From positions 340,813-404,812 of the forward strand of contig CAZSDS010000001.1 of the NCBI GenBank assembly GCA_964605735.1: DNA of 64,000 bases. Direction: 5' to 3'. The DNA is from an uncultured Candidatus Saccharibacteria bacterium. GTDB taxonomy: Bacteria > Patescibacteriota > Doudnabacteria > UBA920 > O2-02-FULL-48-8. A program made the position numbers and the translations under genes. Below the pieces are notes generated by a model, which saw nothing but the letters and a program-made list of their open reading frames with translations, was not told where the DNA came from and made no database searches. The first letter of the stretch is position 1. Each line of letters starts with the position of its first letter. Of the stretch, positions 5,781 to 42,426 are shown one piece after another.

Positions 5781-6746
5781 TTAGGCTGGCTTAACCAGAT
5801 TTGCAGGGACTTCCCCTTTCAACGCAGCCACAATGTTTTCTGCGGCAACCTTGCTCATATTGTCTCTGGTTTCTACTGTCGCGGAAGCTGTGTGCGGTGT
5901 GATGACGATATTTTCAAGATCTGCCAGGCCAGGGGTCAACTGCGGCTCATTTTCCCAAACATCAATCCCAGCCGCGAAGATATCGCCGTTTTTTAAGGCA
6001 TTAAGCAAAGCCACCTCATCCACCACAGGTCCGCGCGCAGTATTAACCAAAACCGCGGTCTTTTTCATCATGTCAAACTGGTGGGCTGAGATAAGGTGCT
6101 TAGTAGTTGGCAAAAGGGGCACGTGAATGGAAATAAAATCGGAATTTTTTAAAAGCTCATCCAGTGTTGAGTGCTTGGACCCGATTTCAGCATCCAATTC
6201 CGTATTTGGTTGAGGATTAGTGTATAAAACTTTCATGCCAAAACCCTTAGCAGCACGTCTGGCCAATGCCCCACCTATCCTGCCCATGCCAATCACTCCA
6301 AGCGTTTTGCCATAAACATCCTGTCCGAGCAGTAGGAAAGGCTGCCACCCCTTGTACTTTCCTGCACGGGAGAACCGATCTGATTCCACTACTCTGTGCG
6401 CAGCTGCCAGCATCAAAGCCATTGCATGATCAGCAACTGCGTCTGTCAGAACGTCCGGGGTATTCGTCACTAAAATATTCCTCTTTGCCGCTTCCTCCAA
6501 ATTGATGTTGTCATAGCCGACTGCATAGTTGGCCACAACCTTAAGCTGTGGGCCAGCCGCATCCATGACTTCCCCGTCAATTTTGTCCACCAGCTGTGAC
6601 AAAATCGCGTCTGCGCCTTGAATATGTCCAATCAGCTCTTCACGGGACAATGGCCGGTCAAGCTGAGAGACTTCAACATCCAGATGATTGGCTTTTAATA
6701 CATCAATACCTGCCTGAGGAACACCCCTTGTGACGAATACTTTCAT
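5781..6746 (-). CDS. D-isomer-specific 2-hydroxyacid dehydrogenase (glyoxylate/hydroxypyruvate reductase-like)
   Basis: 321 aa; NAD-binding GVIGMGRIG motif and catalytic R/E/H pattern of the GhrB/HprA family. Confidence 0.85.
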   Translation of the reverse strand: MKVFVTRGVPQAGIDVLKANHLDVEVSQLDRPLSREELIGHIQGADAILSQLVDKIDGEVMDAAGPQLKVVANYAVGYDNINLEEAAKRNILVTNTPDVLTDAVADHAMALMLAAAHRVVESDRFSRAGKYKGWQPFLLLGQDVYGKTLGVIGMGRIGGALARRAAKGFGMKVLYTNPQPNTELDAEIGSKHSTLDELLKNSDFISIHVPLLPTTKHLISAHQFDMMKKTAVLVNTARGPVVDEVALLNALKNGDIFAAGIDVWENEPQLTPGLADLENIVITPHTASATVETRDNMSKVAAENIVAALKGEVPANLVKPA

Positions 6747-7801
6747 TTTTGTTTCCTAATTTTAATGTTGTTGAAGATGAAATCAATTTTTGACGCCAGT
6801 ATTTCTGTGCTTAACGGCGAAGGGTTGATTTTACTCATGTCTACCTTAAAAACTCCTTCAATATTTGCGTATGGGAGTGCAGGGCCAATAATACTCAGAA
6901 AATACTTGTCTAGGGGAATAATAATAACTTTTCTGTACATATCTTGTGCAAAATACCCTCCAGAAATGTAAAATTCAAGGCCCTCTTGACCATCAATGAT
7001 CGCCTTACTTACTCCGTGCTCAGGTGCAAAGGCTATAACACTGGTCGAGTTTTTTAGTTTTTCATACTCACTATTAACAGCAATACCAATAGCAGGATTA
7101 ATTCTATTATATCCTAGTGTTTCTATAGTAACATCAGAAACAAATGTTTCGCCCATAAAAGACCTTAGATTTATATGCTTCAAAAAATCCCTTCCCCCAT
7201 TCATCAGGTCTATTGCTTCGTTCAACCTAACATCTCCAGGATAGGTAATGGAAACACCCGATTCATCATGTACATAGGATATAGGTTCCAAAATCCTAGG
7301 AGTTTCTTTGAATGACTCCACTATCTTTCTAAAGTATGATATTGCTTCCTTTTCATGATTCTTATCATAGTATATTGTGAAGCTATACTCAGGTGTTTCT
7401 GGTATTGGGAAAATGTCGGAATTGCTCTTCAGAATGGCCATTTTCGTAGGAAAACCGGGATTTTCCTGACCATTAAGCAACATATCATTAGTGGTGAATT
7501 CCAAAGATTGGTTATTCAACCTGACTTTATGTTTACCAGTTTCTCTTAATTCACCGAGTCCTCCACGAGTAATGACAAACCTGAATTTTTTCTCCGAATC
7601 GGAAACATCCTCAAAATAGTACGGATCCTTTAGTGGGTAAACAGCCCAAGCGGCTGGATAGCTAAATTGAAATCCGAGTTTTTCATGGGAAAATGTCTTA
7701 TATTCTTCCCCTGTACTAAATTCATAATAAGCAATACCCACCGCTATTACCAGTATAACCAATATCAAGACCCAACTTTTTTTTCGGAGAGAACCAAACA
7801 T
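6743..7801 (-). CDS. hypothetical signal-anchored secreted protein
   Basis: 352 aa; N-terminal TM/signal anchor, AT-rich codon usage, GFQFSYPAAW motif shared with two other secreted proteins in the window. 4-nt overlaps with both neighbours. Confidence 0.55.
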   Translation of the reverse strand: MFGSLRKKSWVLILVILVIAVGIAYYEFSTGEEYKTFSHEKLGFQFSYPAAWAVYPLKDPYYFEDVSDSEKKFRFVITRGGLGELRETGKHKVRLNNQSLEFTTNDMLLNGQENPGFPTKMAILKSNSDIFPIPETPEYSFTIYYDKNHEKEAISYFRKIVESFKETPRILEPISYVHDESGVSITYPGDVRLNEAIDLMNGGRDFLKHINLRSFMGETFVSDVTIETLGYNRINPAIGIAVNSEYEKLKNSTSVIAFAPEHGVSKAIIDGQEGLEFYISGGYFAQDMYRKVIIIPLDKYFLSIIGPALPYANIEGVFKVDMSKINPSPLSTEILASKIDFIFNNIKIRKQK

Positions 7802-13708: not shown

Positions 13709-14731
13709 TTATTTTGTCTTTTTTTCGTGGTCCATGGGCAGACGCAACAGATCTGCGGCAGTCTCAGGCATGATCGTGTTCACGTAAACGTCAGACCCAA
13801 GTTCGAATCCGCCCCAAACATTAAGTCTTGGTAGGATCTCCAGATGCCAGTGGTAGCTGTTCAAATCATACCTGGTCATGACCCGGTGTGAAATCGGCAA
13901 AGTGTGGATGTAGTAATTATACGCCGGATTATTCAATTTGTAATATAGTTTTTGCAATGTCTGCTTTAAAACACGGCCCAGCGCCTTGCGCTCCTCATCC
14001 GTAACTTCAGTAAAATTGGCCATATGCCGCTTTGGAATGATGCGCAAAGCGTAGGGCACTCGAGCCGCAAACGGACAAAAAACCAAAAAGTCCTCATCAT
14101 CAATTACCACACGTTCTTTGTCAGACAACTCTTTCATGATCATTTGGCAGTACACACATGATCCATTCTGCTGATAGTACATATAACTGCCAGTCACTTC
14201 CTCATGCAGATGTTCCGGGACAAAAGGAGTGGCAAAAATCTGGGAATGGGGATGGAGTAAAGAAGCGCCGCCAGCTTTCCCGTGGTTTTGTAAAATATGG
14301 ATATAACGAACCTCCGGATGGCCGCTTAACTCTTTTATGCGTTGTTGATAGCTAAACAGGTTGGCATCCATGATATCATCGGACAAAAAGCCTGTCAGGA
14401 CATTGTGCTCACGCGTGATAATCACCTCATGGTCACCGATCCCCTCCCTGACATTGTAAAAATCCGTTTTCTTCCTTCCTCCGGCATGCCCCAAAGCCTC
14501 AAACTTATTTGGAATTACCCGGACCTTCCAGTCCTTCCCTTCAGGGAACGAGATAATTTCCAAATTGTAACCTTCATTACCTGGGCAAAATACGCACTTT
14601 GAATCACAGACAGGCAATCCTGCAGGATCTGGACTGGCCGGCTCTTGCCCGAAGTCCTCCGGTCGTTTGCTCCTGTTTGGGGCAAACAGAACCCAGTGAT
14701 GGGATACTATATCTTGTCTAAATTCGCTCAA
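13709..14731 (-). CDS. galT: galactose-1-phosphate uridylyltransferase family (HIT superfamily)
   Basis: 340 aa; N-terminal CxxC Zn site (CVFCPGNE) and catalytic HPHSQ (HxHxQ) motif. Confidence 0.8.
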   Translation of the reverse strand: MSEFRQDIVSHHWVLFAPNRSKRPEDFGQEPASPDPAGLPVCDSKCVFCPGNEGYNLEIISFPEGKDWKVRVIPNKFEALGHAGGRKKTDFYNVREGIGDHEVIITREHNVLTGFLSDDIMDANLFSYQQRIKELSGHPEVRYIHILQNHGKAGGASLLHPHSQIFATPFVPEHLHEEVTGSYMYYQQNGSCVYCQMIMKELSDKERVVIDDEDFLVFCPFAARVPYALRIIPKRHMANFTEVTDEERKALGRVLKQTLQKLYYKLNNPAYNYYIHTLPISHRVMTRYDLNSYHWHLEILPRLNVWGGFELGSDVYVNTIMPETAADLLRLPMDHEKKTK

Positions 14732-15257
14732 TCTTTTGTGTAAATTTGAATGTTTCCACTATCTTGCTGAACATCGAGCCCTTGCCTCGTAAAACCAACA
14801 ACCTGTCGCCCTCTTTGACCAAAATTATTTCTTCCGGCTGTTCTGTCCCCTGGGAAATCATTGTTGCGTTTAATCCGCCAACTCTGACCTGTCTTTCCTC
14901 TGTTCTGAACAAAGACTCCTTGACTGCACGCTCCTCAGATTCAGGATACAAACTGACCTTAAAGTATTCATTTACGTCCGTAGGACTGACAAAACTGATA
15001 GTATTCCCGGCTTCCGATTCCAGCCCCCAATTTTTTGGATATTTAAAGGAAAAACCTGACGGATGGTTAAACGAAGCCCAGGTGCGCGTACCCGTGGTTT
15101 CAGCCATCTGGTTCTGAAAATATATTTCGCTGATCTGAATCTGGGCGATCAAAGCCGAGCACACCAAAACAGCGATGGCGATCGTCCAGACCAACCAGCG
15201 ATTATCGTGAATTTTTATTTTATGCGGATGCCTCCACTTTGTTTTTCTTTTTGCCAT
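14718..15257 (-). CDS. hypothetical signal-anchored secreted protein
   Basis: 179 aa; basic N-terminus + TM, then GFSFKYPKNW motif resembling 6743..7801 and 26649..27086 products. Confidence 0.5.
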   Translation of the reverse strand: MAKRKTKWRHPHKIKIHDNRWLVWTIAIAVLVCSALIAQIQISEIYFQNQMAETTGTRTWASFNHPSGFSFKYPKNWGLESEAGNTISFVSPTDVNEYFKVSLYPESEERAVKESLFRTEERQVRVGGLNATMISQGTEQPEEIILVKEGDRLLVLRGKGSMFSKIVETFKFTQKIERI

Positions 15258-24615: not shown

Positions 24616-25029
24616 TTAGTTCTGCTCCTTTGAGATAAAGCGTGACTTTACTGGAAGTTTATGTGAGGCCAATCGCATTGCTTCCTGAGCCTGTGCGTAA
24701 GTAACGCCATCCATTTCAAACATGATGCGTCCCTTCTGCACTACGGCCACGAAGTGGTCTACTGCACCCTTACCGCTACCCATTGGGGATTCGTTGCCGT
24801 GGGAGGTTACGGATTTGTCAGGGAAAATTCTGATCCAAACTTTGCCGCCGCGCTGGATATAGCGGGTCATGGCGCGTCGGGCGGCTTCAATCTGGCGGCT
24901 GGTTACCCAGCTGTTTTCCATTGCCTTTAAAGCGAATGATCCGAAGGCAATTGAGTTGCCGGCCATTGCTTTCCCCTTGGACCTTCCTCGGTGGTGCTTG
25001 CGATGTTTAACTTTCTTTGGAATCAACAT
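24616..25029 (-). CDS. rplP: 50S ribosomal protein L16
   Basis: 137 aa L16/L10e family. Confidence 0.95.
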
Positions 25030-25048
25030 AAACGTCTAATTAACTTAA

Positions 25049-25717
25049 TTAAATCTTGAGCTTTTGCTTGGTACCCTCAAACACTTCACCTTTATTGATC
25101 CAGACCTTGATGCCGATTGTACCATAAGTGGTAAAGGCAGTGGTTCTGGCAAAATCAATGTTGGCGCGCAAAGTATGGAGAGGGAGCTTGCCTTTGAACA
25201 ATCTTTCTGTTCTTGCAATTTCAGCGCCGCCGAGTCTGCCTGCCATTTCAATCTTCACGCCTACTGCACCGGCTTCCATGACTTTTTCGATCGCCTGCTT
25301 CATGGCGCGGCGGAAAGCAATACGCTTTTCAATCTGGTCTGCAATATCCTGGGCAATCACCTGGGCCTGGAGGCTGACATCTTTTACGTCTTCGATGTTC
25401 AGTTTGATGTCGCGCTTGCTTTTCTTGTCAAAGCCGAGATGCTTGAAAATCTTTTTCTTCAACTCTTCAATGCCATTGCCGCCTTTTCCAATGATCATGC
25501 CTGGTTTGGTGGTCTTGATGTTGATCACAGTACTGTTGGCGGTTCGCTCAATGTCGATTCTAACCAACCCTGCTTTCTTCAATTCGTTCATCAAGAAAGC
25601 GCGGATGGTTGCGTCTTCCTGGAGGTTCTGAGCGTAACCAGTTTTAACCAGCCACTTGGATTTCCAAGTGTCAGTGATTGTCAATCTTAAGCTGTTGGCA
25701 TTGATCTTCTGACCCAT
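25049..25717 (-). CDS. rpsC: 30S ribosomal protein S3
   Basis: 222 aa with KH domain and S3 C-terminal domain. Confidence 0.95.
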
Positions 25718-25741
25718 ATATGTTCCGTTAAATTAAGTGTC

Positions 25742-26320
25742 TTATTCTCCGCTCTTGCGGTTAAACAAACGTCTCTTTAATGTGCTTGTCTGCTTCTTGA
25801 TCTTTTCTTCAGATTTAGGAGCAACTCTTGGCGCAGCATCGTTCTTTATGTCCACTTTGCCTTCCTGAACTTCGTTCTTGGCTGCCTTGGCTTCTGCTTT
25901 GGACTTATCCTGTTCTGCGGTTCGGGCAAAGATGGTTCGGGTTTTCTTTGACTTTGTCTTAGGCTTTGACTCAAGGATGATGTTAATGTGGCTCATGCGC
26001 TTGCGGATGATGAAACCCTGGCCTTGCGCGCGTGGGAACATTCTTTTCATCACTGGTCCGCCGTCTATAGTCACAGCCTTGACCACCAAGTCTTCCTTTT
26101 TCATATCATGATTATGGACTGCGTTTGCGATTGCTGAATTCAATACTTTGGTCATTGGCAAAGCTGCTGACTTGGAGCTGAATCGAAGCTGCTCTAATGC
26201 AACATCAACACGCGCCTTTCTGATCAGGTCTGCTACCAGTCTCAGCTTTCTTGGAGATACGTGAATGTATCTGGCGAATGCTTTGACTTCTATAGGTTTT
26301 TGGGATGCTTGCTTTGCCAT
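25742..26320 (-). CDS. rplV: 50S ribosomal protein L22 with ~75-aa lysine-rich C-terminal extension
   Basis: L22 core (aa 1-115) followed by low-complexity K/E/A-rich tail. Confidence 0.9.
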   Translation of the reverse strand: MAKQASQKPIEVKAFARYIHVSPRKLRLVADLIRKARVDVALEQLRFSSKSAALPMTKVLNSAIANAVHNHDMKKEDLVVKAVTIDGGPVMKRMFPRAQGQGFIIRKRMSHINIILESKPKTKSKKTRTIFARTAEQDKSKAEAKAAKNEVQEGKVDIKNDAAPRVAPKSEEKIKKQTSTLKRRLFNRKSGE

Positions 26321-26344
26321 ACTAGTAGTTAATCAAAATTACTG

Positions 26345-26647
26345 TTATTTAGCTGATGCCGGAGCGGCTGGCTTGGCTTCTTCTTTGGCCATCTTGCCGC
26401 CGTGGCGGATGAACTTGCGGGTTGGCGCAAATTCGCCGAGCTTGTGCCCAACCATGTTTTCTGAAACCAATACGGTTACAAAAGTTCTGCCATTGTGGAC
26501 ATCAAACTTCATGCCTACCATTTCAGGAAAAATCGTTGAGTCTCGAGACCAAGTCTTGATGACACTGCCGCTATTTGGTTTAGTCTTCTGGACTTTTTCC
26601 CAGAGCTTTGGGTCAACAAATGGACCCTTTTTAAGTGATCGTGACAT
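26345..26647 (-). CDS. rpsS: 30S ribosomal protein S19
   Basis: 100 aa S19 family ([12 protein letters not shown]...). Confidence 0.95.
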
Positions 26648-26648
26648 A

Positions 26649-27086
26649 TTATTTAGTAAACCTGAAGGTTGTTAAGATATTTTCTATTATTGCTGCTGAG
26701 GAATCTTGAGACTCAAAGGTGTATACAGAAGAATCGCTGCCCAAACTGTACATTATTTCGTTCTCCGTATCATACACTTTCACCTCATTACCGTTTATCG
26801 TAGTTGTTCTGGTTGGTGGTAACCCAGCAGTTTCTGGTCCAGAAACTATCAACGAAATTACGGTATTCCCATTTCTGTCTATGAAAGAAAATGTAGACGA
26901 TGCATCTGTTCTCACTTCCAAGTCGGTTGGATGTTGGAGTTTAAACCCATACTGGTCGTTAACATAGGTAATCACTTCAGATGTGGTCTGCTGAGTACCA
27001 GAAGTTTCCTGATTCGAAGCAGATTGTTGAGTACAAGCCGCAGCTACTAGAGAAATGCCAGCAATTAATAGTAGTATCTTTTTCAT
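26649..27086 (-). CDS. hypothetical lipoprotein inserted between rplB and rpsS
   Basis: [18 protein letters not shown] lipobox signal; ATG 27084-27086 lies 1 nt after the rplB stop and the gene ends 1 nt before rpsS. S/T-rich mature region with [11 protein letters not shown] motif. Confidence 0.7.
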
Positions 27087-27087
27087 A

Positions 27088-27927
27088 TTACTTGCTTCGT
27101 CTCTTAACAATAAACTTTGCTGAACTCTTCTTTGGGTTGCGGGTTCTTACGCCTAACGCATGCTTGCCCCATGGAGTCTTCGGATACTTCAAACCGATTG
27201 GGTTATGTCCTTCACCACCGCCGTGCGGGTGATCCACCGGGTTCATGGCCTTACCTCTGACGGTTGGGCGAATACCCATGTGGCGGACTCGTCCAGCTTT
27301 TCCGATTCTGACATACATCCAGTCAACGTTTGATACTTGTCCGATGGTGGCGTAAGACTTTACCGGTACTCTGCGGATTTCGCCGGAAGGCATTTTCAGA
27401 AGCGCATAATCACCTTCCATGGATTGGATGATCGCGTAAGTTCCAGCTGATCTGGCAAACTGACCGCCTTTTCCGCCACCCAGGATTTCAATGTCATGGA
27501 TGTTGGTGCCGACTGGGATGTTTCTGATCATCATGCGGTTGCCTGGCTTGATTTCAGTTCGCTCTGCGGTCATTACCACTTGTCCGATTTTCATGCCATC
27601 CGGAGCCAAGATAAATCTTTTTTCTCCGTCTCTGTATGCAAGCAATGAAATGAAAGCGCTTCGTCCCGGATCATACTGCAAGGTCTGCACTTTGGCAGGG
27701 ATATTCATCTTGTCGAGTCTGCTGAAATCAATTGCTCGGAGTTTCTTGCGGTGGCCGCCGCCGATGTGGCGGACAGTAATTTTACCAGAGTGGTTTCGTC
27801 CGGCTGATTTCTTCTTTGACCTGATCAGCGCACGAGGAACTTTCACATCCGCCTTCAATCCTGAATAGTCGGTGACGGAGTGGATTCTGCGCCCTGCTGA
27901 AGTTGGTTTGTAAATCTTAATCGCCAT
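27088..27927 (-). CDS. rplB: 50S ribosomal protein L2
   Basis: 279 aa L2 family incl. conserved GGGH region. Confidence 0.95.
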   Translation of the reverse strand: MAIKIYKPTSAGRRIHSVTDYSGLKADVKVPRALIRSKKKSAGRNHSGKITVRHIGGGHRKKLRAIDFSRLDKMNIPAKVQTLQYDPGRSAFISLLAYRDGEKRFILAPDGMKIGQVVMTAERTEIKPGNRMMIRNIPVGTNIHDIEILGGGKGGQFARSAGTYAIIQSMEGDYALLKMPSGEIRRVPVKSYATIGQVSNVDWMYVRIGKAGRVRHMGIRPTVRGKAMNPVDHPHGGGEGHNPIGLKYPKTPWGKHALGVRTRNPKKSSAKFIVKRRSK

Positions 27928-27928
27928 A

Positions 27929-28408
27929 TTATACTCCTTCGGCCAAACCGGAGATGGTCTCTCCTGCCTTTAAGGTCACAATTGCTTTCTTCCAGTCTGA
28001 AGTTCTGCCTGATGTGCGGCCGTATGCTCTGAACTTGCCTTTGGTGTTTACGATATTCACATCAGTGACATGAACATCATAAACGGATTCAATAGCCTTC
28101 CTGATTTCAATCTTATTGGCCTTGCGGTCAACTACAAATACGTATCTGCCTTGGGTGGAGAGCTGGTTGGATTTCTCTGACAAATGGTACTGCTTGAGCA
28201 CTCGGTGGGCGCGGCCGGTATCATCCTTAAGCTGGGCAGGAGCGCTCTCTGTCTTCTTGCCTTCTTTGGCCATGTTCAAGACATCGTCGTTCTTTCCACT
28301 TGGGGTGGATCCGCCCTTGGCGGACTTTGCGACTTTCTTTGTGGTCTTGTTCTTGTTAGCACCAGCCTCTGGCTGGGCTTTGCCGGTGATTTTGTCGAGT
28401 AATCCCAT
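27929..28408 (-). CDS. rplW: 50S ribosomal protein L23 with ~60-aa K/A-rich N-terminal extension (alternative start possible near 28273)
   Basis: L23 core (RAHRVLKQYHLSEK...KKAIVTLK) preceded by low-complexity lysine/alanine-rich region. Confidence 0.85.
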   Translation of the reverse strand: MGLLDKITGKAQPEAGANKNKTTKKVAKSAKGGSTPSGKNDDVLNMAKEGKKTESAPAQLKDDTGRAHRVLKQYHLSEKSNQLSTQGRYVFVVDRKANKIEIRKAIESVYDVHVTDVNIVNTKGKFRAYGRTSGRTSDWKKAIVTLKAGETISGLAEGV

Positions 28409-28409
28409 A

Positions 28410-29051
28410 TTATTTCTTTAAATAAGTCTTTTCAATTACTTCCAACGCATCTTTTGTAACAATGACGTCGTTCTTAAGCAGGTCAATTACGTTCAATCGG
28501 TTGGCTGGCAATACGGTAACGTTCGGCAGGTTCTTGGCCACTCTTTCAATGCCGGCGTCGTGCTTGGCCAAAATCAAAACATAATTTTTGTCCAAACCTG
28601 ACTTGCCTGCAAAAGCTTTCAACTTGCTGGCCAAATCCTTAGTCTTTTCAACGCCTTCAATCTTATCCAGTACGGCAACTTTCTTGTTGTTCAGCTTGTC
28701 AGTCAAAACAGTAAACAAAGCCTTGCGGAATGCGCTGCGGTTCATCTTGATGGACCAGTTCCTGGTGTTGCGCGGACCGAAAGTGACTCCGCCGCCCTTC
28801 CACAATGGAGAACGGATGGAACCTGCTCGGGCGCGGCCTGTGCCTTTTTGCTTCCAAGGCTTTTTGCCGGAACCGGACACTTCACCGCGGTACTTGGTGT
28901 GGGCAATTGAACTGCGAGCGTTACTGAGCTGTGTGCGAACTGCCTGGTGCACCAAATTTGCGTCGATTTCTTCCACTCCGAAAATTCTGGAATTCAAATC
29001 CACTTCTGAAACTTTGTCGCCCGCTGTATTGTATACTACTGCCTTTGCCAT
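28410..29051 (-). CDS. rplD: 50S ribosomal protein L4
   Basis: 213 aa L4/L1e family. Confidence 0.93.
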   Translation of the reverse strand: MAKAVVYNTAGDKVSEVDLNSRIFGVEEIDANLVHQAVRTQLSNARSSIAHTKYRGEVSGSGKKPWKQKGTGRARAGSIRSPLWKGGGVTFGPRNTRNWSIKMNRSAFRKALFTVLTDKLNNKKVAVLDKIEGVEKTKDLASKLKAFAGKSGLDKNYVLILAKHDAGIERVAKNLPNVTVLPANRLNVIDLLKNDVIVTKDALEVIEKTYLKK

Positions 29052-29052
29052 A

Positions 29053-29721
29053 TTATTCTTTGATTATGTTCGGAAAATCCGTAAACACTCCGTCCACGCC
29101 CATTCCCTTGGCAATCAGGTAATCATGGATGCTGTTAACAGTCCAAGCGAAAACCTTTACACCCAGGCGCCTCATGGATTTCATGTGCACCGGAGTGACC
29201 AAAGTATGAACCGGATGGATTGAGTAAAGATCTAACTGTTTGGCTACTGCCATCATGAATGGCCACATGTAGCCCATTTTTGGACCGATTATGAATCCCA
29301 GGGGGATTTTTCCGTCCAAAGCCCTAACCTTCTTCAAAACAACCGGGTTGTTTGAGGAGATTAAAACCTTGTGCGGAAAACTTTTCACGGCATCCAAAAC
29401 TGCTTGTTCCATGCCATCGACTTTCAGCTCCAAATTCAAAGGCAATTTTGCTGCCTGCAAAAATTCGTTCAGTTCTGGAATTTCACGGCCTTCTTTTTTG
29501 GAGATGTTCTTGACCTCCTCCAAAGTCAGGTCCGAAATTTTTCTGCGGTCGTCGTGCGTTCGGATTAGTGTGGGGTCGTGGATTATTACCACTTTACCAT
29601 CCTTGGTCAGGCGCAAATCCGCCTCAACCATCTGAACGCCCGCGTCGATTCCTGCTTGTAAAGAACCTATCGTGTTTTCCGGGGCCAAACCCGCGGCCCC
29701 GCGATGCCCGATAATCAGCAT
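29053..29721 (-). CDS. glycerophosphodiester phosphodiesterase family protein inserted between rplC and rplD
   Basis: Starts MLIIGHRGAAGLAPENT (GDPD HR(G) motif); catalytic E/D/H pattern. ATG 29719-29721 is 1 nt after the rplC stop and the gene ends 1 nt before rplD. Confidence 0.8.
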   Translation of the reverse strand: MLIIGHRGAAGLAPENTIGSLQAGIDAGVQMVEADLRLTKDGKVVIIHDPTLIRTHDDRRKISDLTLEEVKNISKKEGREIPELNEFLQAAKLPLNLELKVDGMEQAVLDAVKSFPHKVLISSNNPVVLKKVRALDGKIPLGFIIGPKMGYMWPFMMAVAKQLDLYSIHPVHTLVTPVHMKSMRRLGVKVFAWTVNSIHDYLIAKGMGVDGVFTDFPNIIKE

Positions 29722-29722
29722 A

Positions 29723-30322
29723 TTAAACAGTCTGGATTTTGACCATTGCACCCGGTGCGCCAGGGATCGCTCCTTTAATCGCAATCAAATTCTTGGCTGT
29801 ATCTATATCAACAACTTCCAGATTCTTTACGGTTCTTGAACCGGCCATGTGGCCTGCCATGCGCAAACCTTTTCTGACGTGCTGTGGGAAGCGCATACCA
29901 ATGGAACCTACGGCGCGAGGGTGGTCGTGGCCGTGTGAAGCCGGCTGTCCGCCGAATCCATATCTCTTGATAGGCCCAGCAAAACCGCGCCCCTTCATCT
30001 GGGAAGTAACTTTCACAACATCGCCAACAGCAAAGGTGTCAACTTTGATTTCCTGTCCTTTTTCAAATTTGGCGTCAGCTGGAATTCTGAATTCAACAAG
30101 TCTGGCGAAATTCTTCATGCCCTTCAAGTGGCCTGCAGTAGCCTTGTTCTGGCTCTTCTTTTTGCCAAAGCCAACCTGCACTGCTGTGTACTTGTCCTTA
30201 TCAGCGGTTCTGACCTGGGTAACCTTAACTGGAGATGCCTTCAAAATCGTAACAGGAACGACTTTGCCGTCCTTGTTGAAGATTTGAGACATATGAAGTT
30301 TTTCTGCGACGATGAATTTCAT
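29723..30322 (-). CDS. rplC: 50S ribosomal protein L3
   Basis: Starts MKFIVAEKLHMSQIF (ATG 30320-30322 verified); L3 family. Confidence 0.93.
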   Translation of the reverse strand: MKFIVAEKLHMSQIFNKDGKVVPVTILKASPVKVTQVRTADKDKYTAVQVGFGKKKSQNKATAGHLKGMKNFARLVEFRIPADAKFEKGQEIKVDTFAVGDVVKVTSQMKGRGFAGPIKRYGFGGQPASHGHDHPRAVGSIGMRFPQHVRKGLRMAGHMAGSRTVKNLEVVDIDTAKNLIAIKGAIPGAPGAMVKIQTV

Positions 30323-30582
30323 AAAAGCTTGTTGCATTTATTTGGATAAACAAAAACCGATCAGATCCTTCTCTCTTTTCTCCGTATCCGGAGCAAGAGC
30401 AGAACCTAAGCGGTTCATGTAAACGAGGATGCATTTGTTTCCTGCTGACTAGGCAGAAGATATTCTTTTTTGATCTCCTGAGGTTATATGTTGCTTTTTG
30501 CCGGTTTCCGGCGTGGCCGGACCAGGCGCAGTCTGCGTATTAACCTGTGGAATTTAACAAACGGAACCCAAAAACCCAAACT

Positions 30583-30903
30583 TTACATTTTAATCTCTAC
30601 ATCAACACCTGCCGGGAGGTTCAAATTTGAGAGGGCATCAATGGTCTTAGGTGTCGGGGTTGAGATATCAATCAATCTTTTGTGAACGCGCATTTCGAAT
30701 TGTTCGCGGGCATTCTTGTGGACGAAGGTCGAGCGAAGCACCGTATATTTGGTCTTTTCAGTCGGCAAAGGCACAGGACCAATGACTCCAGCCCCGGTTC
30801 GCTTTGCAGTGTCTACAATCTGTCGAGCGGACTGGTCAATGAGCTTATGGTCATAGGCTCTGATTTTGATTCTTATTCTGGCTGTATCGGTTGCCTGCGG
30901 CAT
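30583..30903 (-). CDS. rpsJ: 30S ribosomal protein S10
   Basis: 106 aa collinear with bacterial S10 ([16 protein letters not shown]...). Confidence 0.95.
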
Positions 30904-30955
30904 ATATCGAAATGTGGATAACTAAGTTATAAACTGGTTATTAAACAACTTTGAT

Positions 30956-30984
30956 ATTCTAAACGATTTTGCTTAAAAAGTCAA
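30956..30984 (-). promoter_or_regulatory. candidate sigma70-type promoter of the S10 operon (-35 TTGACT, 17-nt spacer, -10 TAGAAT)
   Basis: Read on the minus strand: TTGACT ttttaagcaaaatcgtt TAGAAT, about 45 nt upstream of the rpsJ ATG and downstream of the tuf terminator. Confidence 0.5.
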
Positions 30985-31061
30985 TTCTCCCCGCTAAAAT
31001 TGTCCAACAAGCTGTGGAAAACCCCCTTTTTGCTAAGAAAATTGCTTATTTCTAAGCCATT

Positions 31062-31103
31062 TTTTCAAGAAAATCCCTCCCTTTCGGGAGAAAGGGAGGG
31101 AAC
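31062..31103 (-). terminator. rho-independent terminator downstream of tuf
   Basis: 11-bp perfect stem tccctcccttt/aaagggaggga with loop cgggag, followed on the minus strand by TTTTCTT. Confidence 0.75.
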
Positions 31104-31108
31104 TTTTC

Positions 31109-32290
31109 TTATTTGTTGATCTTCAATACCACTCCAGCACCTACGGTGTGACCGCCTTCGCGAACTGCGAAGCGCATCTTTTCTTCCAAAGCAACTGGGG
31201 TAATAAGTTTGATGTTCAAGGTAACGGTGTCACCCGGCATGACCATTTCCTGGCCTTCTGGGAGGATAACTTCACCGGTTACGTCAGTGGTTCGGATGTA
31301 GAACTGAGGCTTGTATCCCTTGAAGAAAGGAGTGTGGCGTCCGCCTTCTTCCTTGGTCAAGATATATACTTCAGCTTCAAATTCAGTGTGAGGAGTAACT
31401 GATCCTGGCTTTGCCAAAACCTGTCCGCGTTCAACATCTTCCTTTTTTGTACCACGGAGCAAAATACCTGCGTTGTCACCAGCTTGACCCTTGTCCAACT
31501 GCTTGTTGAACATTTCGATACCAGTCACAACAGTCTTGGTGGTTGGGCGGATACCAACGATTTCGATTTCATCGTTAAGGTTGATAACGCCTCTTTCAAT
31601 ACGGCCGGTAACTACGGTACCGCGGCCTTCAATTGAGAAGATGTCTTCGATAGGCATCAAGAAAGGCTTGTCAGTTTCTCGAACTGGGTCTGGGATGTAA
31701 GTATCAAGAGCTTCAACCAGTTTGGTGATTGATTCTTCGTACTTGGCATCGCCTTCGATAGCCTTCAAAGCGGATCCACGGATAATAGGTGTTTCTTTTC
31801 CTGGGAATCCGTATTTGGTCAAAAGATCGCGGACTTCTTCTTCAACCAAGTCCAAAAGCTCTGGATCTTCAACCATATCGCACTTGTTGAGGTAAACAAC
31901 AATGTATGGAACGCCGACCTGCTTTGCGAGCAAAATGTGTTCGCGGGTCTGAGGCATTGGGCCGTCAGCAGCAGACACAACCAAGATGGAGCCGTCCATT
32001 TGGGCAGCACCGGTGATCATGTTCTTAATGTAGTCAGCGTGACCTGGACAGTCGACGTGAGCGTAGTGGCGCTTGTCAGACTGGTACTCGACGTGAGTGG
32101 TATTGATGGTAATACCACGAGCCTTTTCTTCTGGAGCGTTGTCGATTTGTGCGTAGTCGCGCTCCTGGGCAAAACCCTTCTTAGCCAAAACGTGGGTGAT
32201 GGCGGCAGTCAAAGTGGTCTTACCATGGTCAACGTGACCGATGGTACCGACGTTGACGTGCACTTTGGAACGGTCAAATTTGTCAGCCAT
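31109..32290 (-). CDS. tuf: elongation factor Tu
   Basis: Starts [27 protein letters not shown] (ATG 32288-32290 verified); G1-G5 GTPase motifs. The 13-codon upstream extension in the ORF track is rejected. Confidence 0.97.
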
Positions 32291-32646
32291 TGTATTCCTT
32301 GGGCACGTACAGCTTCTTAGGCTTGTCATTCTGATCTAAGCGAAACCTGCCTATATTGTGGCGGTCTCTCCTGTCTTTGCAGACAGATTTAGCCAAGTTC
32401 AGGATGACTCCAAAACCTTAAAAGCCTCTGTGCGAGTTAATTTATAAGCTTACTAATTATAAGAGAAATCCTTGAATATTGCAAGGATAATTTCTCTTGC
32501 AGTAAAAGCGCCGCTTGTTTCCAAGAAGCCGCTATATAGTAATATTTTCATCCGACATCGTCAACTATAGACCTAAGGCGCGCTCTTTTTTGTTTTGACA
32601 CCAGTCGTTCAACTGGTTTATGCTTCCAGGCATAAGGAGGGTCCTT

Positions 32647-32949
32647 ATGGGAGATTTCGGAACTTTTGTCTTGATGCTTGTGGTGACATCCGGCCTCGGC
32701 TACAGGTCAGTTCAGCTCGATTGTCTAGCTGAACGGGGCCAGCTGGAGAACATCTCACGGGCAAACAAGCTTGCCGGCATGTTCCAAATCTGCATGGTGT
32801 TGACGGTGGCCACAAGCATCAAAATGTGCTACAGCCACATCGCTGACACAGTTCTGATGGCTGTTGCCATGAGCGCTTTGGTGGCTGTCGAAATCTTCTC
32901 CCTGTGGTTCTACGCCATTCGTGGCGTGGTCCTCGACTACGAACCATGA
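32647..32949 (+). CDS. hypothetical small membrane protein (3 predicted TM), opposite strand, between fusA and tuf
   Basis: AAGGAGG at 32634-32640 with 6-nt spacer to ATG 32647; 100 aa hydrophobic product; own terminator at 32962-32994. Confidence 0.55.
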   Translation: MGDFGTFVLMLVVTSGLGYRSVQLDCLAERGQLENISRANKLAGMFQICMVLTVATSIKMCYSHIADTVLMAVAMSALVAVEIFSLWFYAIRGVVLDYEP

Positions 32950-32961
32950 CCCGCTCTCATG

Positions 32962-32994
32962 ACCTGCCCCGTCCCTGGCAGGTCTTTTTTTCTG
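32962..32994 (+). terminator. rho-independent terminator of the 32647 gene
   Basis: gacctgcc-ccgtccct-ggcaggtc followed by TTTTTTTCT. Confidence 0.7.
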
Positions 32995-33020
32995 AATAAC
33001 ATCGCAACCATAGTGGACGC

Positions 33021-39945: not shown

Positions 39946-42426
39946 CTATAATTCGATATTCCAATTTACGTTTCTGTCCAGCAGTTGCAACATCTGGCCT
40001 TGAGGGATCGGCGGGCTGAACAAATAGCCTTGTGCTTTGTCACACTCCCTATCTTTAAGGAAACGAAGCTGGTCATAGCGCTCGACTCCCTCTGCGGTCA
40101 CCAACACCCCCAAACTGCGCGAGAGATTGATCACGGCATTGGCAATTGCCGTGTCTTTTTCTTTCATGGGAATCCCCTTCATGAACGAATGCGAAACTTT
40201 CAAACTGTGAACCGGAAACTTCTTCACGTAATCAAGTGACGAATGGCCAGTGGTGAAATCGTCGATCGCAAATTTTATCCCATCTTTCCTGAGCTGAACC
40301 ATCATGTTGTAAAGGTTGTGTGAATTCTCCACCAAAACGCTTTCTGTAAGCTCAAATTCCAACCGCTTTGGGTCAAACTCACATTCCGCCAAAATCTTTC
40401 TGATGTTTCTGATCAAATGCCTCTGCCGTAACTGTCTTGCCGACAAATTGACTGACAAATCTAGCATATGGCCGTACCTTTCCCAGGTTTTTACATCCAG
40501 GCATGCCTGGCGCAATACCCACTCGCCGATCGGCTGAATCAGTCCGGTGGTCTCGGCTATTGGGATAAACTCATCCGGGAAAGTCAGGCCAAGCTCCGGG
40601 TGCATCCATCTGATCAAGGCTTCCACCTGCACAATCCTTCCGGTTGGAATGTCGATTTGCGGAATGTAATAAACAAGGAATTCATTGTTCTCCAGTGCCT
40701 TTCGCAAAGTGTTTTCCATGGCCAATTGCTGGAAAGTGGTCGCGTTCATGGATGGGTTGTAGTACTGGAAGTTGTTGCGGCCCATTTCTTTGGCGCGGTA
40801 CAAAGCTGAATCAGCGTTCTTCATAAGCGAAGACACATCGGTCCCGTCATATGGATAAACTGAAATCCCAATGCTTGGCGTGATATAAAGTTCGTGGGTA
40901 TCAAGCCTGAACGCGGGCTTAAGCGCTTCCAGGATTCTGGAGCATGCCTGGCCTATCTCTTCTTCGCGGACAATGCCGCCCAGGATAATGCCGTATTCAT
41001 CTCCGCCAAGACGCGCCAGCATATCCGTATCATCCAAACAGCTGGCCAGCCTTAAACTGACCTCCTGAATCAGCCGGTCGCCAATGGAATGCCCCAGCGA
41101 TTCATTAATCATCTTAAACCGGTCAAGGTCAATTATCATTGTGCCGAACAACTTATCCTGTTTTTCCTCCAGCAGATTCCCTAATCTTTCTGTAAAATAA
41201 TTGCGGTTCGGCAAATCAGTCAGGCTGTCATGATAATGGCTGTATTGGGCTCTTTCTTCTGCAGCTTTCCTTTCAGTTATGTCACGGAAATTGACGACAA
41301 TTGCTTTGACATTGGCATCATGCAAAAGATTTGTGCTGGAAGTTTCCACCCACCTCCAAACACCGTCCGCGTGCCTGATTCGCATTTCATGGACTGTAGT
41401 ATCGCCTGGAGTAGCCAGCAGTTTTGCGAACTCCTCCATGACGTAGTTAATGTCAGCCGGATGGACATAATCAAATCCGTTTCGGGTGCCGAATTCAACG
41501 GTGTCATAACCCAGCACCCGCGTAATGGACGGGCTGGAATAGATAACCGTTCCTTTTGCGTCAATCAGGGCAATAACATCAGAGCTTTTTTCAATCAAAG
41601 CCCGGAATCTGGCTTCATGGCTTTTCAGCTTTTCCTCGGATTTTTTTTCTTCTGTAATATCCCTGATTTCCAAAACCGCACCAACCAGCTCGCCTTCATT
41701 TACTATCGGGCTGGACGAGCACAAACTATAAAAAAACTCGCCATTTTTTCTGATGTAAACACTCTCATGGTCTCTAACCGGTTTCATTTCAGCCAACGCC
41801 CTGTCAACCTTGCATTCATCCTGGGGAAAAGGACTGCCGTCAGGCTTTGTATGGTGAATCACCTCATGCAGACTCTTGCCTCTGACACTATCCAATGAAT
41901 GCCCAATCATTTTCTCCGCCGCCGGATTCATAAACGTGACGCAATTTTTGGCATCCATCAAAAACAAGCCGACAGTGGTGTTGTCAGTTATGCTTTTAAT
42001 TAAATAATTTTGGTGTTCCAGGGAAGAAATTTCCCTGACAGTGTCAGTAACGTCAATGCAGGAACCAATATACCCCACGAACTCTCCTCCTGGCAGGTAA
42101 AGTGGCGAACCGTTTTCCATAAACCAGCGGTAGCGTCCATCATGGCGGCGCAGGCGGTACTTCAACCCAAATTCTTTCCTTCGATCAAAATTTTCCGTAT
42201 AAACCTTCAAACACCTTTCCACGTCTTCCGGATACATGCTGTCCACCCATCCGTAGCCAAGTTCCTGCTCCATTTCCCTGCCGGTGAACTCAAGCCAGCG
42301 CTTGTTGAAGAACGTGCAATTTTTGCTTGTGTCAGACATCCAGACCAAAACCGGAGCACTGTCAGCCATCGCCTGGAAAAGCGAGAGCGCATCAGATAAT
42401 TTTTGTTTCTGCAGTTCTTTATTCAT
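39946..42426 (-). CDS. PAS-PAS-PAS-GGDEF-EAL signalling protein (c-di-GMP cyclase/phosphodiesterase)
   Basis: 826 aa; three PAS repeats, GGDEF domain (RLGGDEYG variant), EAL domain (EFELTE, DDFTTG, sensor-type motifs). Its stop codon directly abuts the stop of the convergent 38404 gene. Confidence 0.9.
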   Translation of the reverse strand: MNKELQKQKLSDALSLFQAMADSAPVLVWMSDTSKNCTFFNKRWLEFTGREMEQELGYGWVDSMYPEDVERCLKVYTENFDRRKEFGLKYRLRRHDGRYRWFMENGSPLYLPGGEFVGYIGSCIDVTDTVREISSLEHQNYLIKSITDNTTVGLFLMDAKNCVTFMNPAAEKMIGHSLDSVRGKSLHEVIHHTKPDGSPFPQDECKVDRALAEMKPVRDHESVYIRKNGEFFYSLCSSSPIVNEGELVGAVLEIRDITEEKKSEEKLKSHEARFRALIEKSSDVIALIDAKGTVIYSSPSITRVLGYDTVEFGTRNGFDYVHPADINYVMEEFAKLLATPGDTTVHEMRIRHADGVWRWVETSSTNLLHDANVKAIVVNFRDITERKAAEERAQYSHYHDSLTDLPNRNYFTERLGNLLEEKQDKLFGTMIIDLDRFKMINESLGHSIGDRLIQEVSLRLASCLDDTDMLARLGGDEYGIILGGIVREEEIGQACSRILEALKPAFRLDTHELYITPSIGISVYPYDGTDVSSLMKNADSALYRAKEMGRNNFQYYNPSMNATTFQQLAMENTLRKALENNEFLVYYIPQIDIPTGRIVQVEALIRWMHPELGLTFPDEFIPIAETTGLIQPIGEWVLRQACLDVKTWERYGHMLDLSVNLSARQLRQRHLIRNIRKILAECEFDPKRLEFELTESVLVENSHNLYNMMVQLRKDGIKFAIDDFTTGHSSLDYVKKFPVHSLKVSHSFMKGIPMKEKDTAIANAVINLSRSLGVLVTAEGVERYDQLRFLKDRECDKAQGYLFSPPIPQGQMLQLLDRNVNWNIEL

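What the first reader, a model, noticed from the sequence alone, without database searches (positions are those of the whole stretch)
29053..29721. Glycerophosphodiester phosphodiesterase embedded between rplC and rplD
A GDPD-family enzyme (MLIIGHRGAAG...) sits between L3 and L4 with 1-nt intergenic gaps on each side; it overlaps neither neighbour once the conserved start is used. Metabolic enzymes inside the S10 operon are rare. High, growth-rate-coupled expression of a lipid head-group salvage enzyme may reflect dependence on scavenged host/partner lipids, as proposed for episymbiotic CPR bacteria.
Basis: partly seen in the sequence, partly recalled or inferred. Interest (0 to 1): 0.55.

Follow-up and report, generated by a model that had tools for sequence, protein, structure and literature searches.

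The report
Lipid-headgroup enzyme gene inside ribosomal operon
A normal-looking, catalytically intact glycerophosphodiester phosphodiesterase gene really does sit between ribosomal protein genes L3 and L4, and it has been kept there across a whole clade of Doudnabacteria (tiny CPR bacteria), which is an unusual but modest variation of one of the most conserved operons in bacteria.

Summary
A 222-aa GDPD (minus strand, 29053-29721) lies between rplC and rplD with 1-nt gaps on both sides. It scores Pfam PF03009 E=4e-42. All catalytic and metal residues are present, and the AlphaFold model (pLDDT 97) matches T. tengcongensis GDPD at TM 0.87.

It is neither a chimera nor a recent island. GC and GC3 match the neighbouring genes. 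The same L3-GDPD-L4 order occurs in 9 of 10 related assemblies that form a 100%-bootstrap r-protein clade named Doudnabacteria, with GDPD identity down to 39%. None of 79 other Patescibacteria junctions has it. One nested relative (L092) has lost it.

The GDPD clade is monophyletic. It splits into three subtypes: full-length; third metal ligand Glu changed to His or Asp; and insertion segment deleted.

The six consecutive gene junctions from rplC to rpsS share the motif TAAtATG, so co-transcription and translational coupling with r-proteins are likely. Codon adaptation (CAI 0.60-0.62) is that of ordinary enzymes and of the spc-operon passengers adk and map, not of r-proteins (0.73). 'Very high expression' is therefore not supported.

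The most likely function is cytoplasmic release of glycerol-3-phosphate (or lysophosphatidate) from scavenged lipid breakdown products. That function is inferred, not shown.

Interest is modest: a new clade-level operon variant.

The parts
29053..29721 (-). GDPD gene: 222 aa, no signal peptide. Motif residues are H6-R7, E15-N16, E33-x-D35, H48-D49, E98 and K100.
29723..30337 (-). rplC (L3). Its stop TAA lies 1 nt before the GDPD ATG. The true start may be the internal ATG at 30322 (MKFIV...), as in relatives.
28410..29051 (-). rplD (L4). Its ATG lies 1 nt after the GDPD stop.
30583..30903 (-). rpsJ (S10), the first gene of the operon.
30956..30984 (-). Sigma-70-like promoter match (TTGACT-17-TAGAAT, 10 of 12) upstream of rpsJ. 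A consensus match only.
31074..31101 (-). Strong terminator-like hairpin (12-bp stem plus T-run) after tuf. It separates tuf from the S10 unit.
30348..30416 (-). Conserved long hairpin followed by a U-run in the rpsJ-rplC spacer, about 10-25 nt upstream of rplC. It is a candidate attenuator or operator that would control rplC-GDPD-rplD and the genes after them.
   Evidence: Seven of 20 pairs show compensatory changes. The element is present in all 10 ingroup loci.
27929..28408 (-). rplW (L23). TAAtATG junction with rplD.
27088..27927 (-). rplB (L2). TAAtATG junction with rplW.
26649..27086 (-). Second non-ribosomal insert: a 145-aa predicted lipoprotein ([18 protein letters not shown]...) between rplB and rpsS. 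Composition is atypical (GC 0.39, GC3 0.34, CAI 0.49-0.50). It is present in only some relatives.
26345..26647 (-). rpsS (S19). TAAtATG junction with the lipoprotein ORF.

Best explanation
The gene encodes a compact, cytoplasmic, divalent-metal-dependent glycerophosphodiester phosphodiesterase of the small UgpQ / T. tengcongensis-GDPD type. It was inserted once between rplC and rplD in the ancestor of a Doudnabacteria clade. Since then it has been maintained there as a passenger of the S10 r-protein transcription unit.

Shown: family, fold and intact active site; exact position; conservation of that position across the clade; native composition; one secondary loss.

Inferred: it is transcribed from the rpsJ promoter, passes the conserved rpsJ-rplC hairpin, and is translated by termination-reinitiation coupling at the TAAtATG junctions. 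Its mRNA level would then follow ribosome synthesis, while its translation level stays that of an ordinary enzyme.

Inferred by homology: it cleaves deacylated phospholipids (glycerophosphocholine, -ethanolamine, -glycerol) to sn-glycerol-3-phosphate plus the head-group alcohol. It may also act as a lysophospholipase D on lysolipids to give lysophosphatidate. Either way it would feed the glycerol-phosphate backbone into membrane rebuilding or glycolysis in an organism that cannot make its own lipids.
For: Identity. Pfam GDPD E=3.7e-42. The nearest PDB relative is 2pz0, E=3e-30, with H6, R7, E33, D35, H48, E98 and K100 aligned to its H17, R18, E44, D46, H59, E119 and K121. The roles of these residues are described in PMC4926365. 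Across 84 clade sequences at 37-79% identity, H6, E33, D35, H48 and K100 are invariant wherever the position is covered, and R7 is conserved in 80 of 81, so the gene is under purifying selection as an enzyme. The model has pLDDT 97 and a GDPD TIM barrel. There is no N-terminal signal; the protein starts directly at strand beta-1.

Operon membership. Gaps are 1 nt, and the junction motif TAAtATG is shared by all six junctions from rplC to rpsS. A promoter-like site lies before rpsJ and a terminator after tuf, with no convincing internal terminator.

Ancestral and vertical. L3-GDPD-L4 is found in L001, L002, L003/4, L086, L087, L090, L091, L093 and the P0076 contig. The ingroup is monophyletic in r-protein and in GDPD trees, 100/100 each. 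None of 79 outgroup junctions has it. The nearest non-clade GDPDs (P0088, P0091) sit in unrelated contexts.

Plausible role. M. pneumoniae GlpQ performs this reaction on host-derived deacylated phospholipids (PMC3178575). CPR bacteria are described as unable to synthesise membrane lipids and as enriched in lysolipids (10.1101/465690). A small GDPD of this type has lysoPLD activity (PMC4926365).
Against: There are no expression or biochemical data. Codon adaptation is ordinary (CAI 0.60-0.62 against 0.73 for r-proteins), so high protein output is not indicated.

The gene was lost from the junction in L092. Whether that genome keeps a copy elsewhere is unknown. Only two ingroup loci were sampled independently of the GDPD (one with, one without), so prevalence in the clade is poorly estimated.

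The GDPD tree conflicts with the r-protein tree for L002, so inheritance is not strictly vertical, or rates are very uneven. One subclade replaces the third metal ligand E98 by His or Asp; in ttGDPD an Ala at that position inactivates the enzyme (PMC4926365).

The window protein does not reach the NCBIfam equivalog cut-offs for UgpQ, GlpQ or lysoPG-PLD, so its substrate is not defined. I could not check whether these genomes lack other glycerol-3-phosphate sources such as GpsA or GlpK.
Confidence: 0.62

Rival explanations
1. Neutral hitch-hiker. The GDPD is an ordinary housekeeping enzyme whose position in the S10 operon has no regulatory meaning. In these compact genomes with tightly packed co-directional genes it landed in a permissive junction. 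It stays there because it has no promoter of its own and excision must be exact.
For: Codon usage is like ordinary genes and like the classical passengers adk and map. L092 shows a clean loss with only 16 nt between rplC and rplD. The same clade carries other, variable inserts in the operon: lipoprotein genes at rplB-rpsS and, in L093, at tuf-rpsJ. Outgroup CPR loci show 0.5-1.9 kb inserts at rplB-rpsS.
Against: The GDPD insert is far more stable than the lipoprotein inserts: 9 of 10 ingroup loci, across GDPD divergence down to 39% identity. It also keeps tight coupling junctions (overlap, 0-2 nt) in most relatives. That suggests the arrangement is at least not disfavoured. This rival concerns significance, not identity, and partly overlaps the best explanation.
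Confidence: 0.25
2. Diverged function. The clade's enzyme no longer acts mainly on free glycerophosphodiesters. It acts on another phosphodiester (lysophospholipids as a lysoPLD, glycerol-phosphate polymers or teichoic-acid precursors, or another substrate), or it has a second, regulatory 'trigger-enzyme' or ribosome-associated role that explains its fixed place next to L3 and L4.
For: Some residues are invariant in the clade but variable in outgroup GDPDs: R37, E105, F115, K131, L135 and D136. One subclade lacks the roughly 20-aa GDPD insertion segment and another has E98 changed to His or Asp. The protein is below every NCBIfam equivalog cut-off. There is precedent for lysoPLD activity in a small GDPD (PMC4926365) and for a regulatory effect of GlpQ in M. 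pneumoniae (PMC3178575).
Against: The full G3P-binding and catalytic constellation is retained, and the model superposes on classical GDPDs, including G3P-bound structures 3qvq and 5t9b. Nothing in the sequence suggests RNA or ribosome binding. The loss in L092 argues against an essential ribosome-linked role.
Confidence: 0.1
3. Artefact or recent acquisition: an assembly chimera, a mis-called ORF, or a recently transferred island.
For: None beyond the oddity of the location.
Against: The same arrangement occurs in at least 9 independent assemblies from NCBI, ENA, JGI and Logan. Composition is native. The Pfam match is full-length and the model is confident. The GDPD clade is monophyletic and confined to this junction.
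Confidence: 0.01

Closest known systems
Small cytoplasmic bacterial and archaeal GDPDs: T. tengcongensis GDPD (2pz0), T. kodakarensis and P. furiosus GDPD (4oec, 7e0v), E. coli UgpQ type
   Same: About 220-250 aa single TIM barrel. HR...EN...ExD...HD motif, two catalytic His residues, a Glu/Asp/Glu metal site, and no signal peptide. 32% identity and TM 0.87 to 2pz0.
   Different: Shorter (222 aa; 196-203 aa in one subclade). It does not reach the UgpQ equivalog cut-off (91 against 264 bits). It is encoded inside the S10 r-protein operon instead of with ugp/glp transport genes or alone.
Mycoplasma pneumoniae GlpQ (PMC3178575)
   Same: A GDPD in a genome-reduced, lipid-scavenging bacterium. It makes glycerol-3-phosphate from deacylated host phospholipids.
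   Different: It is not encoded in an r-protein operon. Its role in carbon supply, H2O2 production and gene expression was shown experimentally, whereas nothing is shown here.
Non-ribosomal passengers of r-protein operons (secY, adk, map and infA in spc; rpoA in alpha)
   Same: Non-ribosomal genes co-transcribed with r-proteins. In this window adk and map have the same ordinary codon adaptation as the GDPD.
   Different: Those passengers lie at the distal end of spc/alpha and are almost universal in bacteria. This one lies in the core of S10 between L3 and L4 and is restricted to one CPR clade.
S. aureus lysophosphatidylglycerol phospholipase D (8ghh; PMC10404611)
   Same: GDPD-fold enzyme that recycles a lysolipid into lysophosphatidate for membrane homeostasis. 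This is a possible alternative reaction.
   Different: Only a weak match (NF053857, 46.6 against 450 bits; TM 0.78). The S. aureus enzyme is larger.

Membership tests
GDPD family (Pfam PF03009, EC 3.1.4.46) | Profile match above the curated cut-off over the whole domain | tested here: met
   145.5 bits against 23.6; profile positions 1-243 of 244.
GDPD family (Pfam PF03009, EC 3.1.4.46) | Active-site motif HR(X)nEN(X)nEXD(X)nHD with two catalytic His residues (PMC4926365) | tested here: met
   H6-R7, E15-N16, E33-A-D35 and H48-D49. In the clade H6 is 81/81 and H48 is 84/84.
GDPD family (Pfam PF03009, EC 3.1.4.46) | Metal-binding Glu/Asp/Glu triad plus the Lys two residues after the third ligand | tested here: met
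   E33, D35, E98 and K100 are present in the window protein. In the clade E98 is Glu in 66, Asp in 7 and His in 11 sequences.
GDPD family (Pfam PF03009, EC 3.1.4.46) | (beta/alpha)8 TIM-barrel fold superposable on solved GDPDs | tested here: met
   pLDDT 97.1; Foldseek top hits are all GDPDs, with 2pz0 at TM 0.87 and E=1e-20.
GDPD family (Pfam PF03009, EC 3.1.4.46) | Hydrolysis of glycerophosphodiesters to sn-glycerol-3-phosphate | not testable with these tools
   Needs an enzyme assay.
E. coli UgpQ equivalog (NCBIfam NF006989) | Score at or above the equivalog cut-off | tested here: not met
   91.4 bits against a cut-off of 264. UgpQ-like in size and localisation, but not an equivalog.
Periplasmic GlpQ (NCBIfam NF008354) | Equivalog score and an N-terminal signal peptide | tested here: not met
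   48.7 bits against 254, N-terminal 56 residues only. The protein starts at strand beta-1, MLIIGHRG.
Member of the S10 r-protein operon (transcription unit) | Same strand, with no room for its own promoter or terminator | tested here: met
   1-nt gaps on both sides. TAAtATG junctions as between the true r-protein genes.
Member of the S10 r-protein operon (transcription unit) | Position conserved in related genomes | tested here: met
   9 of 10 ingroup loci. 0 of 79 outgroup loci.
Member of the S10 r-protein operon (transcription unit) | Co-transcription and co-regulation with r-proteins | not testable with these tools
   Only consensus scans are available. RNA-seq is needed.
Member of the S10 r-protein operon (transcription unit) | Codon adaptation typical of r-protein-level expression | tested here: not met
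   CAI 0.600-0.615 against r-proteins at 0.728+-0.045 (minimum 0.607) and other genes at 0.580+-0.034.

The most novel reading that the evidence does not exclude
The GDPD is not a mere passenger. In Doudnabacteria the supply of glycerol-phosphate or lysophosphatidate from scavenged partner lipids would be deliberately tied to ribosome production through the shared, clade-specific rpsJ-rplC attenuator hairpin and through translational coupling to L3 and L4. Membrane building and ribosome building would then be balanced by a single control point in a cell that can make neither lipids nor many regulators. The enzyme subtypes (E98 to His/Asp, loss of the insertion segment) would reflect adaptation to different host lipids. 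They could be exchanged between lineages by recombination, using the conserved rplC and rplD genes as homology arms.
Probability: 0.1. Interest if true: 0.65.

Novelty: new variant of a known kind. Interest (0 to 1): 0.35.

Why it matters
The S10 cluster is one of the most invariant gene orders in bacteria. A metabolic enzyme fixed in its core for the whole history of a CPR class-level clade is a clean, datable synteny marker for Doudnabacteria. It is also a small natural experiment on what an r-protein operon tolerates.

If the coupling is functional, it would point to the lipid-backbone supply step as growth-limiting in lipid-auxotrophic ultrasmall bacteria, and it would name a concrete enzyme to assay. 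If it is neutral, it documents, together with the variable lipoprotein inserts, that r-protein operons in compact CPR genomes are more permissive than textbook examples suggest.

Tried and rejected
1. GDPD query against metagenome contigs. It was useless for synteny.

2. L4 query against genome contigs. They serve as a negative control but did not sample Doudnabacteria proper.

3. Matching L4 and GDPD clusters by identical 'longest contig' length to estimate prevalence. This proved unreliable. L001 and L093 carry both genes but do not match by this criterion, so I used it only for the P0145/P0018 pair.

4. The listing of cluster members, to test whether L4 P0127 (81% identity) and the short-type GDPD P0056 (44% identity) share the 7642-nt JGI contig. 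No accessions were given, so this is unresolved.

5. L031, the one outgroup locus with a 701-nt L3-L4 gap. It holds a Lys/Glu-rich C-terminal extension of L3 and a small opposite-strand ORF, not an enzyme.

6. Rfam search of 25000-33000 at E<=1. It gave only a chance-level sRNA hit, and no known r-protein leader.

7. Literature searches for a GDPD in the S10 operon or in Doudnabacteria. Nothing relevant was found.

8. Correlation of GDPD and r-protein pairwise identities. It was weak (Pearson 0.49, Spearman 0.09), because the GDPD is near saturation and its rates are uneven, so it does not settle vertical inheritance.

9. Assembly chimera and recent-HGT readings were rejected (see the rival explanations).

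Full report
**1. The observation**

The S10 operon lies on the minus strand of the window. The gene order is as follows.

| Gene | Coordinates |
|---|---|
| tuf | 31109-32329 |
| rpsJ | 30583-30903 |
| rplC | 29723-30337 |
| GDPD-like ORF | 29053-29721 |
| rplD | 28410-29051 |
| rplW | 27929-28408 |
| rplB | 27088-27927 |
| extra small ORF | 26649-27086 |
| rpsS | 26345-26647 |
| rplV | 25742-26320 |

The rplC stop (TAA, 29725-29723) is followed by one base and then the GDPD ATG at 29721. The GDPD stop (29055-29053) is followed by one base and then the rplD ATG at 29051. The mechanical ORF reaches a TTG at 29784 inside rplC. The coordinates and the '1-nt gaps' are confirmed.

**2. What the protein is**

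- Pfam gives GDPD (PF03009) at E=3.7e-42, covering the whole profile.
- NCBIfam gives only sub-threshold matches to UgpQ, GlpQ and lysoPG-PLD equivalogs.
- The nearest solved relative is T. tengcongensis GDPD, 2pz0 (E=3e-30).
- The ungapped N-terminal alignment places H6, R7, E33, D35 and H48 on 2pz0 H17, R18, E44, D46 and H59. E98 and K100 fall on E119 and K121.
- PMC4926365 describes the family motif HR..EN..ExD..HD, the two His residues as general acid and base, and the Glu/Asp/Glu metal site whose Ala mutants are dead in ttGDPD.
- An AlphaFold2 model built on a 67-sequence alignment has pLDDT 97.1. Its best Foldseek matches in the PDB are all GDPDs (2pz0 TM 0.87; G3P-bound 3qvq and 5t9b TM about 0.87).
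- The chain starts directly with strand beta-1, so there is no signal peptide and the enzyme is cytoplasmic.

**3. Is it native and conserved?**

GC (0.475) and GC3 (0.565) match the r-protein genes (0.48 and 0.52) and the window as a whole (0.464).

The protein search found about 80 clusters at 37-79% identity, named Doudnabacteria or Patescibacteria where named at all. Below them come ordinary bacterial GDPDs at 37% identity or less.

Looking up the contigs of eight clade members that span all identities gave the same order, S10-L3-GDPD-L4-L23, every time.

| GDPD cluster | Identity to window | Locus |
|---|---|---|
| P0002 | 79% | L001 |
| P0025 | 59% | L002 |
| P0054 | 45% | L003, L004 |
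| P0066 | 41% | L086 |
| P0076 | 40% | contig without DNA |
| P0075 | 39% | L087 |
| P0040 | 45% | L090 |
| P0037 | 51% | L091 |

The next-best GDPDs, P0088 (37%) and P0091 (34%), lie in unrelated contexts in other bacteria.

As a control, 80 Patescibacteria loci fetched through L4 (L4 identity 52% or less to the window) were screened by tblastn. Seventy-nine of them held both L3 and L4, and none of these had a GDPD. The L3-L4 gaps were 8-311 nt, with one exception. That exception, L031, holds an L3 tail extension, not an enzyme.

Two further ingroup loci were fetched through L4 alone, without reference to the GDPD:
- L093 (L4 65% identical to the window) has a 197-aa GDPD at the junction.
- L092 (L4 74% identical) has rplC and rplD 16 nt apart with no GDPD.

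**4. Phylogenetic reading**

A neighbour-joining tree of concatenated S10+L3+L4+L2+S19 makes the ten ingroup loci monophyletic (100/100). It places L092 as sister to the window plus L001 (100/100). The empty junction of L092 is therefore a secondary loss.

In an L4-only tree, the nearest neighbour of L092's L4 is P0145. Its 191,139-nt contig length equals that of GDPD P0018, so the loss looks tip-level. This rests on contig-length identity and is an inference.

The GDPDs of the junction are themselves monophyletic against outgroup GDPDs (100/100). The simplest history is one insertion at the base of this Doudnabacteria clade, retention since then, and at least one loss.

Caveat: eight of the ten ingroup loci were found through the GDPD itself. 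Only two were sampled blind (one with the gene, one without), so the true prevalence is not well estimated.

**5. Diversity inside the clade**

- Subtype (a): about 221 aa with 'HDDRR...'. This is the window's type.
- Subtype (b): 218-229 aa, with the third metal ligand Glu98 replaced by His (11 sequences) or Asp (7 sequences).
- Subtype (c): 196-203 aa, lacking about 20 residues of the small GDPD insertion segment.

All three subtypes are found at the junction: (a) in L001 and L002; (b) in L090 and L091; (c) in L003, L086, L087 and L093.

H6, E33, D35, H48 and K100 are invariant wherever the position is covered, and R7 is conserved in 80 of 81. Several residues are fixed in the clade but variable outside it: R37, E105, F115, K131, L135 and D136.

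One conflict is unexplained. By r-proteins, L002 groups with L003, L087, L091 and L093 (60/60, on both sides of the GDPD). Its GDPD, however, groups with the window and L001 (100/100). Either the b and c types evolve much faster, or GDPD alleles have been swapped between lineages by recombination with the conserved rplC and rplD genes as arms.

**6. Expression-related evidence**

- A strong terminator-like hairpin follows tuf (31101-31074), and a promoter-like site (30984-30956) precedes rpsJ. No convincing terminator lies within the operon (consensus scans only).
- All six junctions from rplC to rpsS read TAAtATG. The GDPD is stitched in exactly like the genuine r-protein genes, which suggests termination-reinitiation coupling (inference).
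- The window shows a clear codon-bias gradient. Leave-one-out CAI of translation genes is 0.728+-0.045 (minimum 0.607), against 0.580+-0.034 for 37 other genes.
- The GDPD scores 0.600. With an r-protein-only reference it scores 0.615, next to adk 0.577, map 0.581, gap 0.619 and pgk 0.600. It is below secY 0.68, fusA 0.74 and tuf 0.80.

The gene is therefore probably co-transcribed with r-proteins, but it has not been selected for r-protein-level translation. 'Growth-rate-coupled transcription' remains plausible.

**7. Mechanism**

Shown: an intact, cytoplasmic, metal-dependent GDPD, fixed in the S10 operon of one CPR clade.

Inferred from family knowledge: it hydrolyses glycerophosphodiesters to sn-glycerol-3-phosphate plus alcohol. 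Lysophospholipase D activity, which yields lysophosphatidate, is a realistic alternative, because a close structural relative from P. furiosus has it (PMC4926365).

Inferred from biology:
- CPR bacteria are reported to be unable to make membrane lipids and to be enriched in lysolipids (10.1101/465690).
- M. pneumoniae uses GlpQ on deacylated host phospholipids (PMC3178575).
- A backbone-salvage role therefore fits.

The 64-kb window itself carries glycolysis and pentose-phosphate genes, a PAP2 phosphatase, a DedA/VTT protein and an MFS transporter. It has no dedicated glycerol-phosphate genes. I could not inspect whole genomes.

**8. Comparison and novelty**

The protein is a new member of a well-known family. 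The arrangement is a new, clade-wide variant of the S10 operon. It is comparable in principle to secY, adk and map in the spc operon, but it lies in the operon core and is lineage-specific. Searches of the paper library found no report of it.

It is real and tidy but only mildly surprising, and it opens no long-standing question. I score interest at 0.35.

**9. Things noticed on the way**

(a) The 245-nt rpsJ-rplC spacer folds unusually well (z=-3.4). It ends in a long hairpin plus U-run (30416-30348) that is conserved in all ten ingroup loci, including L092. Seven of its 20 pairs show compensatory changes. The sequence motif is absent from the 80 outgroup loci, and there is no Rfam match. It is a candidate r-protein attenuator and would sit upstream of the GDPD.

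(b) A lipoprotein gene family occupies the rplB-rpsS junction in some clade members and, in L093, also the tuf-rpsJ spacer.

(c) Other CPR loci show large rplB-rpsS gaps.

(d) The window carries a PAS-GGDEF-EAL protein.

Noticed in passing
window 30338-30582 (-); core hairpin 30348-30416 (-): The rpsJ-rplC spacer is unusually long at 245 nt and is structured (MFE -77.9 kcal/mol, z=-3.4). It ends in a 15-20-bp hairpin followed by UUUUU, about 10-25 nt before rplC. The hairpin is conserved in all 10 Doudnabacteria-clade loci, and 7 of its 20 pairs show compensatory changes (for example G-C to A-U at pair 6-58). As a sequence motif it is absent from the 80 outgroup loci, and there is no Rfam hit. 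It is a candidate new r-protein attenuator or leader placed inside the operon rather than before rpsJ.
   Followed up: partly
window 26649-27086 (-); L003 6479-7024; L091 5234-5812; L093 5406-7110 and 1210-1725: A second non-ribosomal insert lies between rplB and rpsS. It is a predicted lipoprotein with a lipobox signal (...AAAC), a 'Y(T/V)NxxYGFxxxxP' motif and, in most members, a C-terminal 'F(K/R)FT(K/Q)'. It belongs to a paralogous family. The number of copies at this junction varies from 0 to 3 among clade members, and L093 has another copy between tuf and rpsJ. The window copy has atypical composition (GC 0.39, GC3 0.34, CAI 0.49-0.50). Two other window proteins (6743-7801 and 14718-15257) share the same weak PsbP_2-like motif.
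   Followed up: partly
L055, L056, L061, L075, L078, L079, L082 (rplB-rpsS region): Several Paceibacteria- or Saccharibacteria-labelled outgroup loci have 0.5-1.9 kb between rplB and rpsS. Most of them (all but L075) also gave no tblastn hit for L23. The rplB-rpsS junction may be a general insertion hot spot in CPR S10 operons.
   Followed up: no
L002 versus L003/L087/L091/L093 and window/L001: The trees conflict. The r-proteins on both sides of the GDPD place L002 with L003, L087, L091 and L093 (60/60 bootstraps), but its GDPD groups with the window and L001 (100/100). This suggests either in-situ allele replacement by recombination between Doudnabacteria lineages or strong rate heterogeneity between GDPD subtypes.
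   Followed up: partly
GDPD clade alignment (P0031-P0052; P0049-P0081): One subclade replaces the third metal ligand Glu98 with His ('NLHVKVH', 11 sequences) or Asp (7 sequences). Another has deleted about 20 residues of the GDPD insertion segment, giving 196-203-aa enzymes that are among the shortest GDPDs. Both subclades still occupy the L3-L4 junction.
   Followed up: partly
window 39946-42426 (-): An 826-aa protein with multiple PAS domains plus GGDEF and EAL domains, indicating cyclic-di-GMP turnover. This is unexpected in a small CPR genome. Its CAI (0.579) is native-like.
   Followed up: no
window junctions 29722, 29052, 28409, 27928, 27087, 26648: Six consecutive gene junctions from rplC to rpsS have the identical architecture TAA-T-ATG, mostly without a recognisable Shine-Dalgarno sequence. 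This suggests systematic termination-reinitiation coupling in this operon.
   Followed up: partly
P0127 (L4, 81% identical to window) and P0056 (GDPD, 44% identical, short type), both from a 7642-nt JGI contig: If the two are on the same contig, a very close relative of the window organism carries a distant, short-type GDPD. That would be a second case of allele replacement. It could not be resolved because no accessions were returned.
   Followed up: partly
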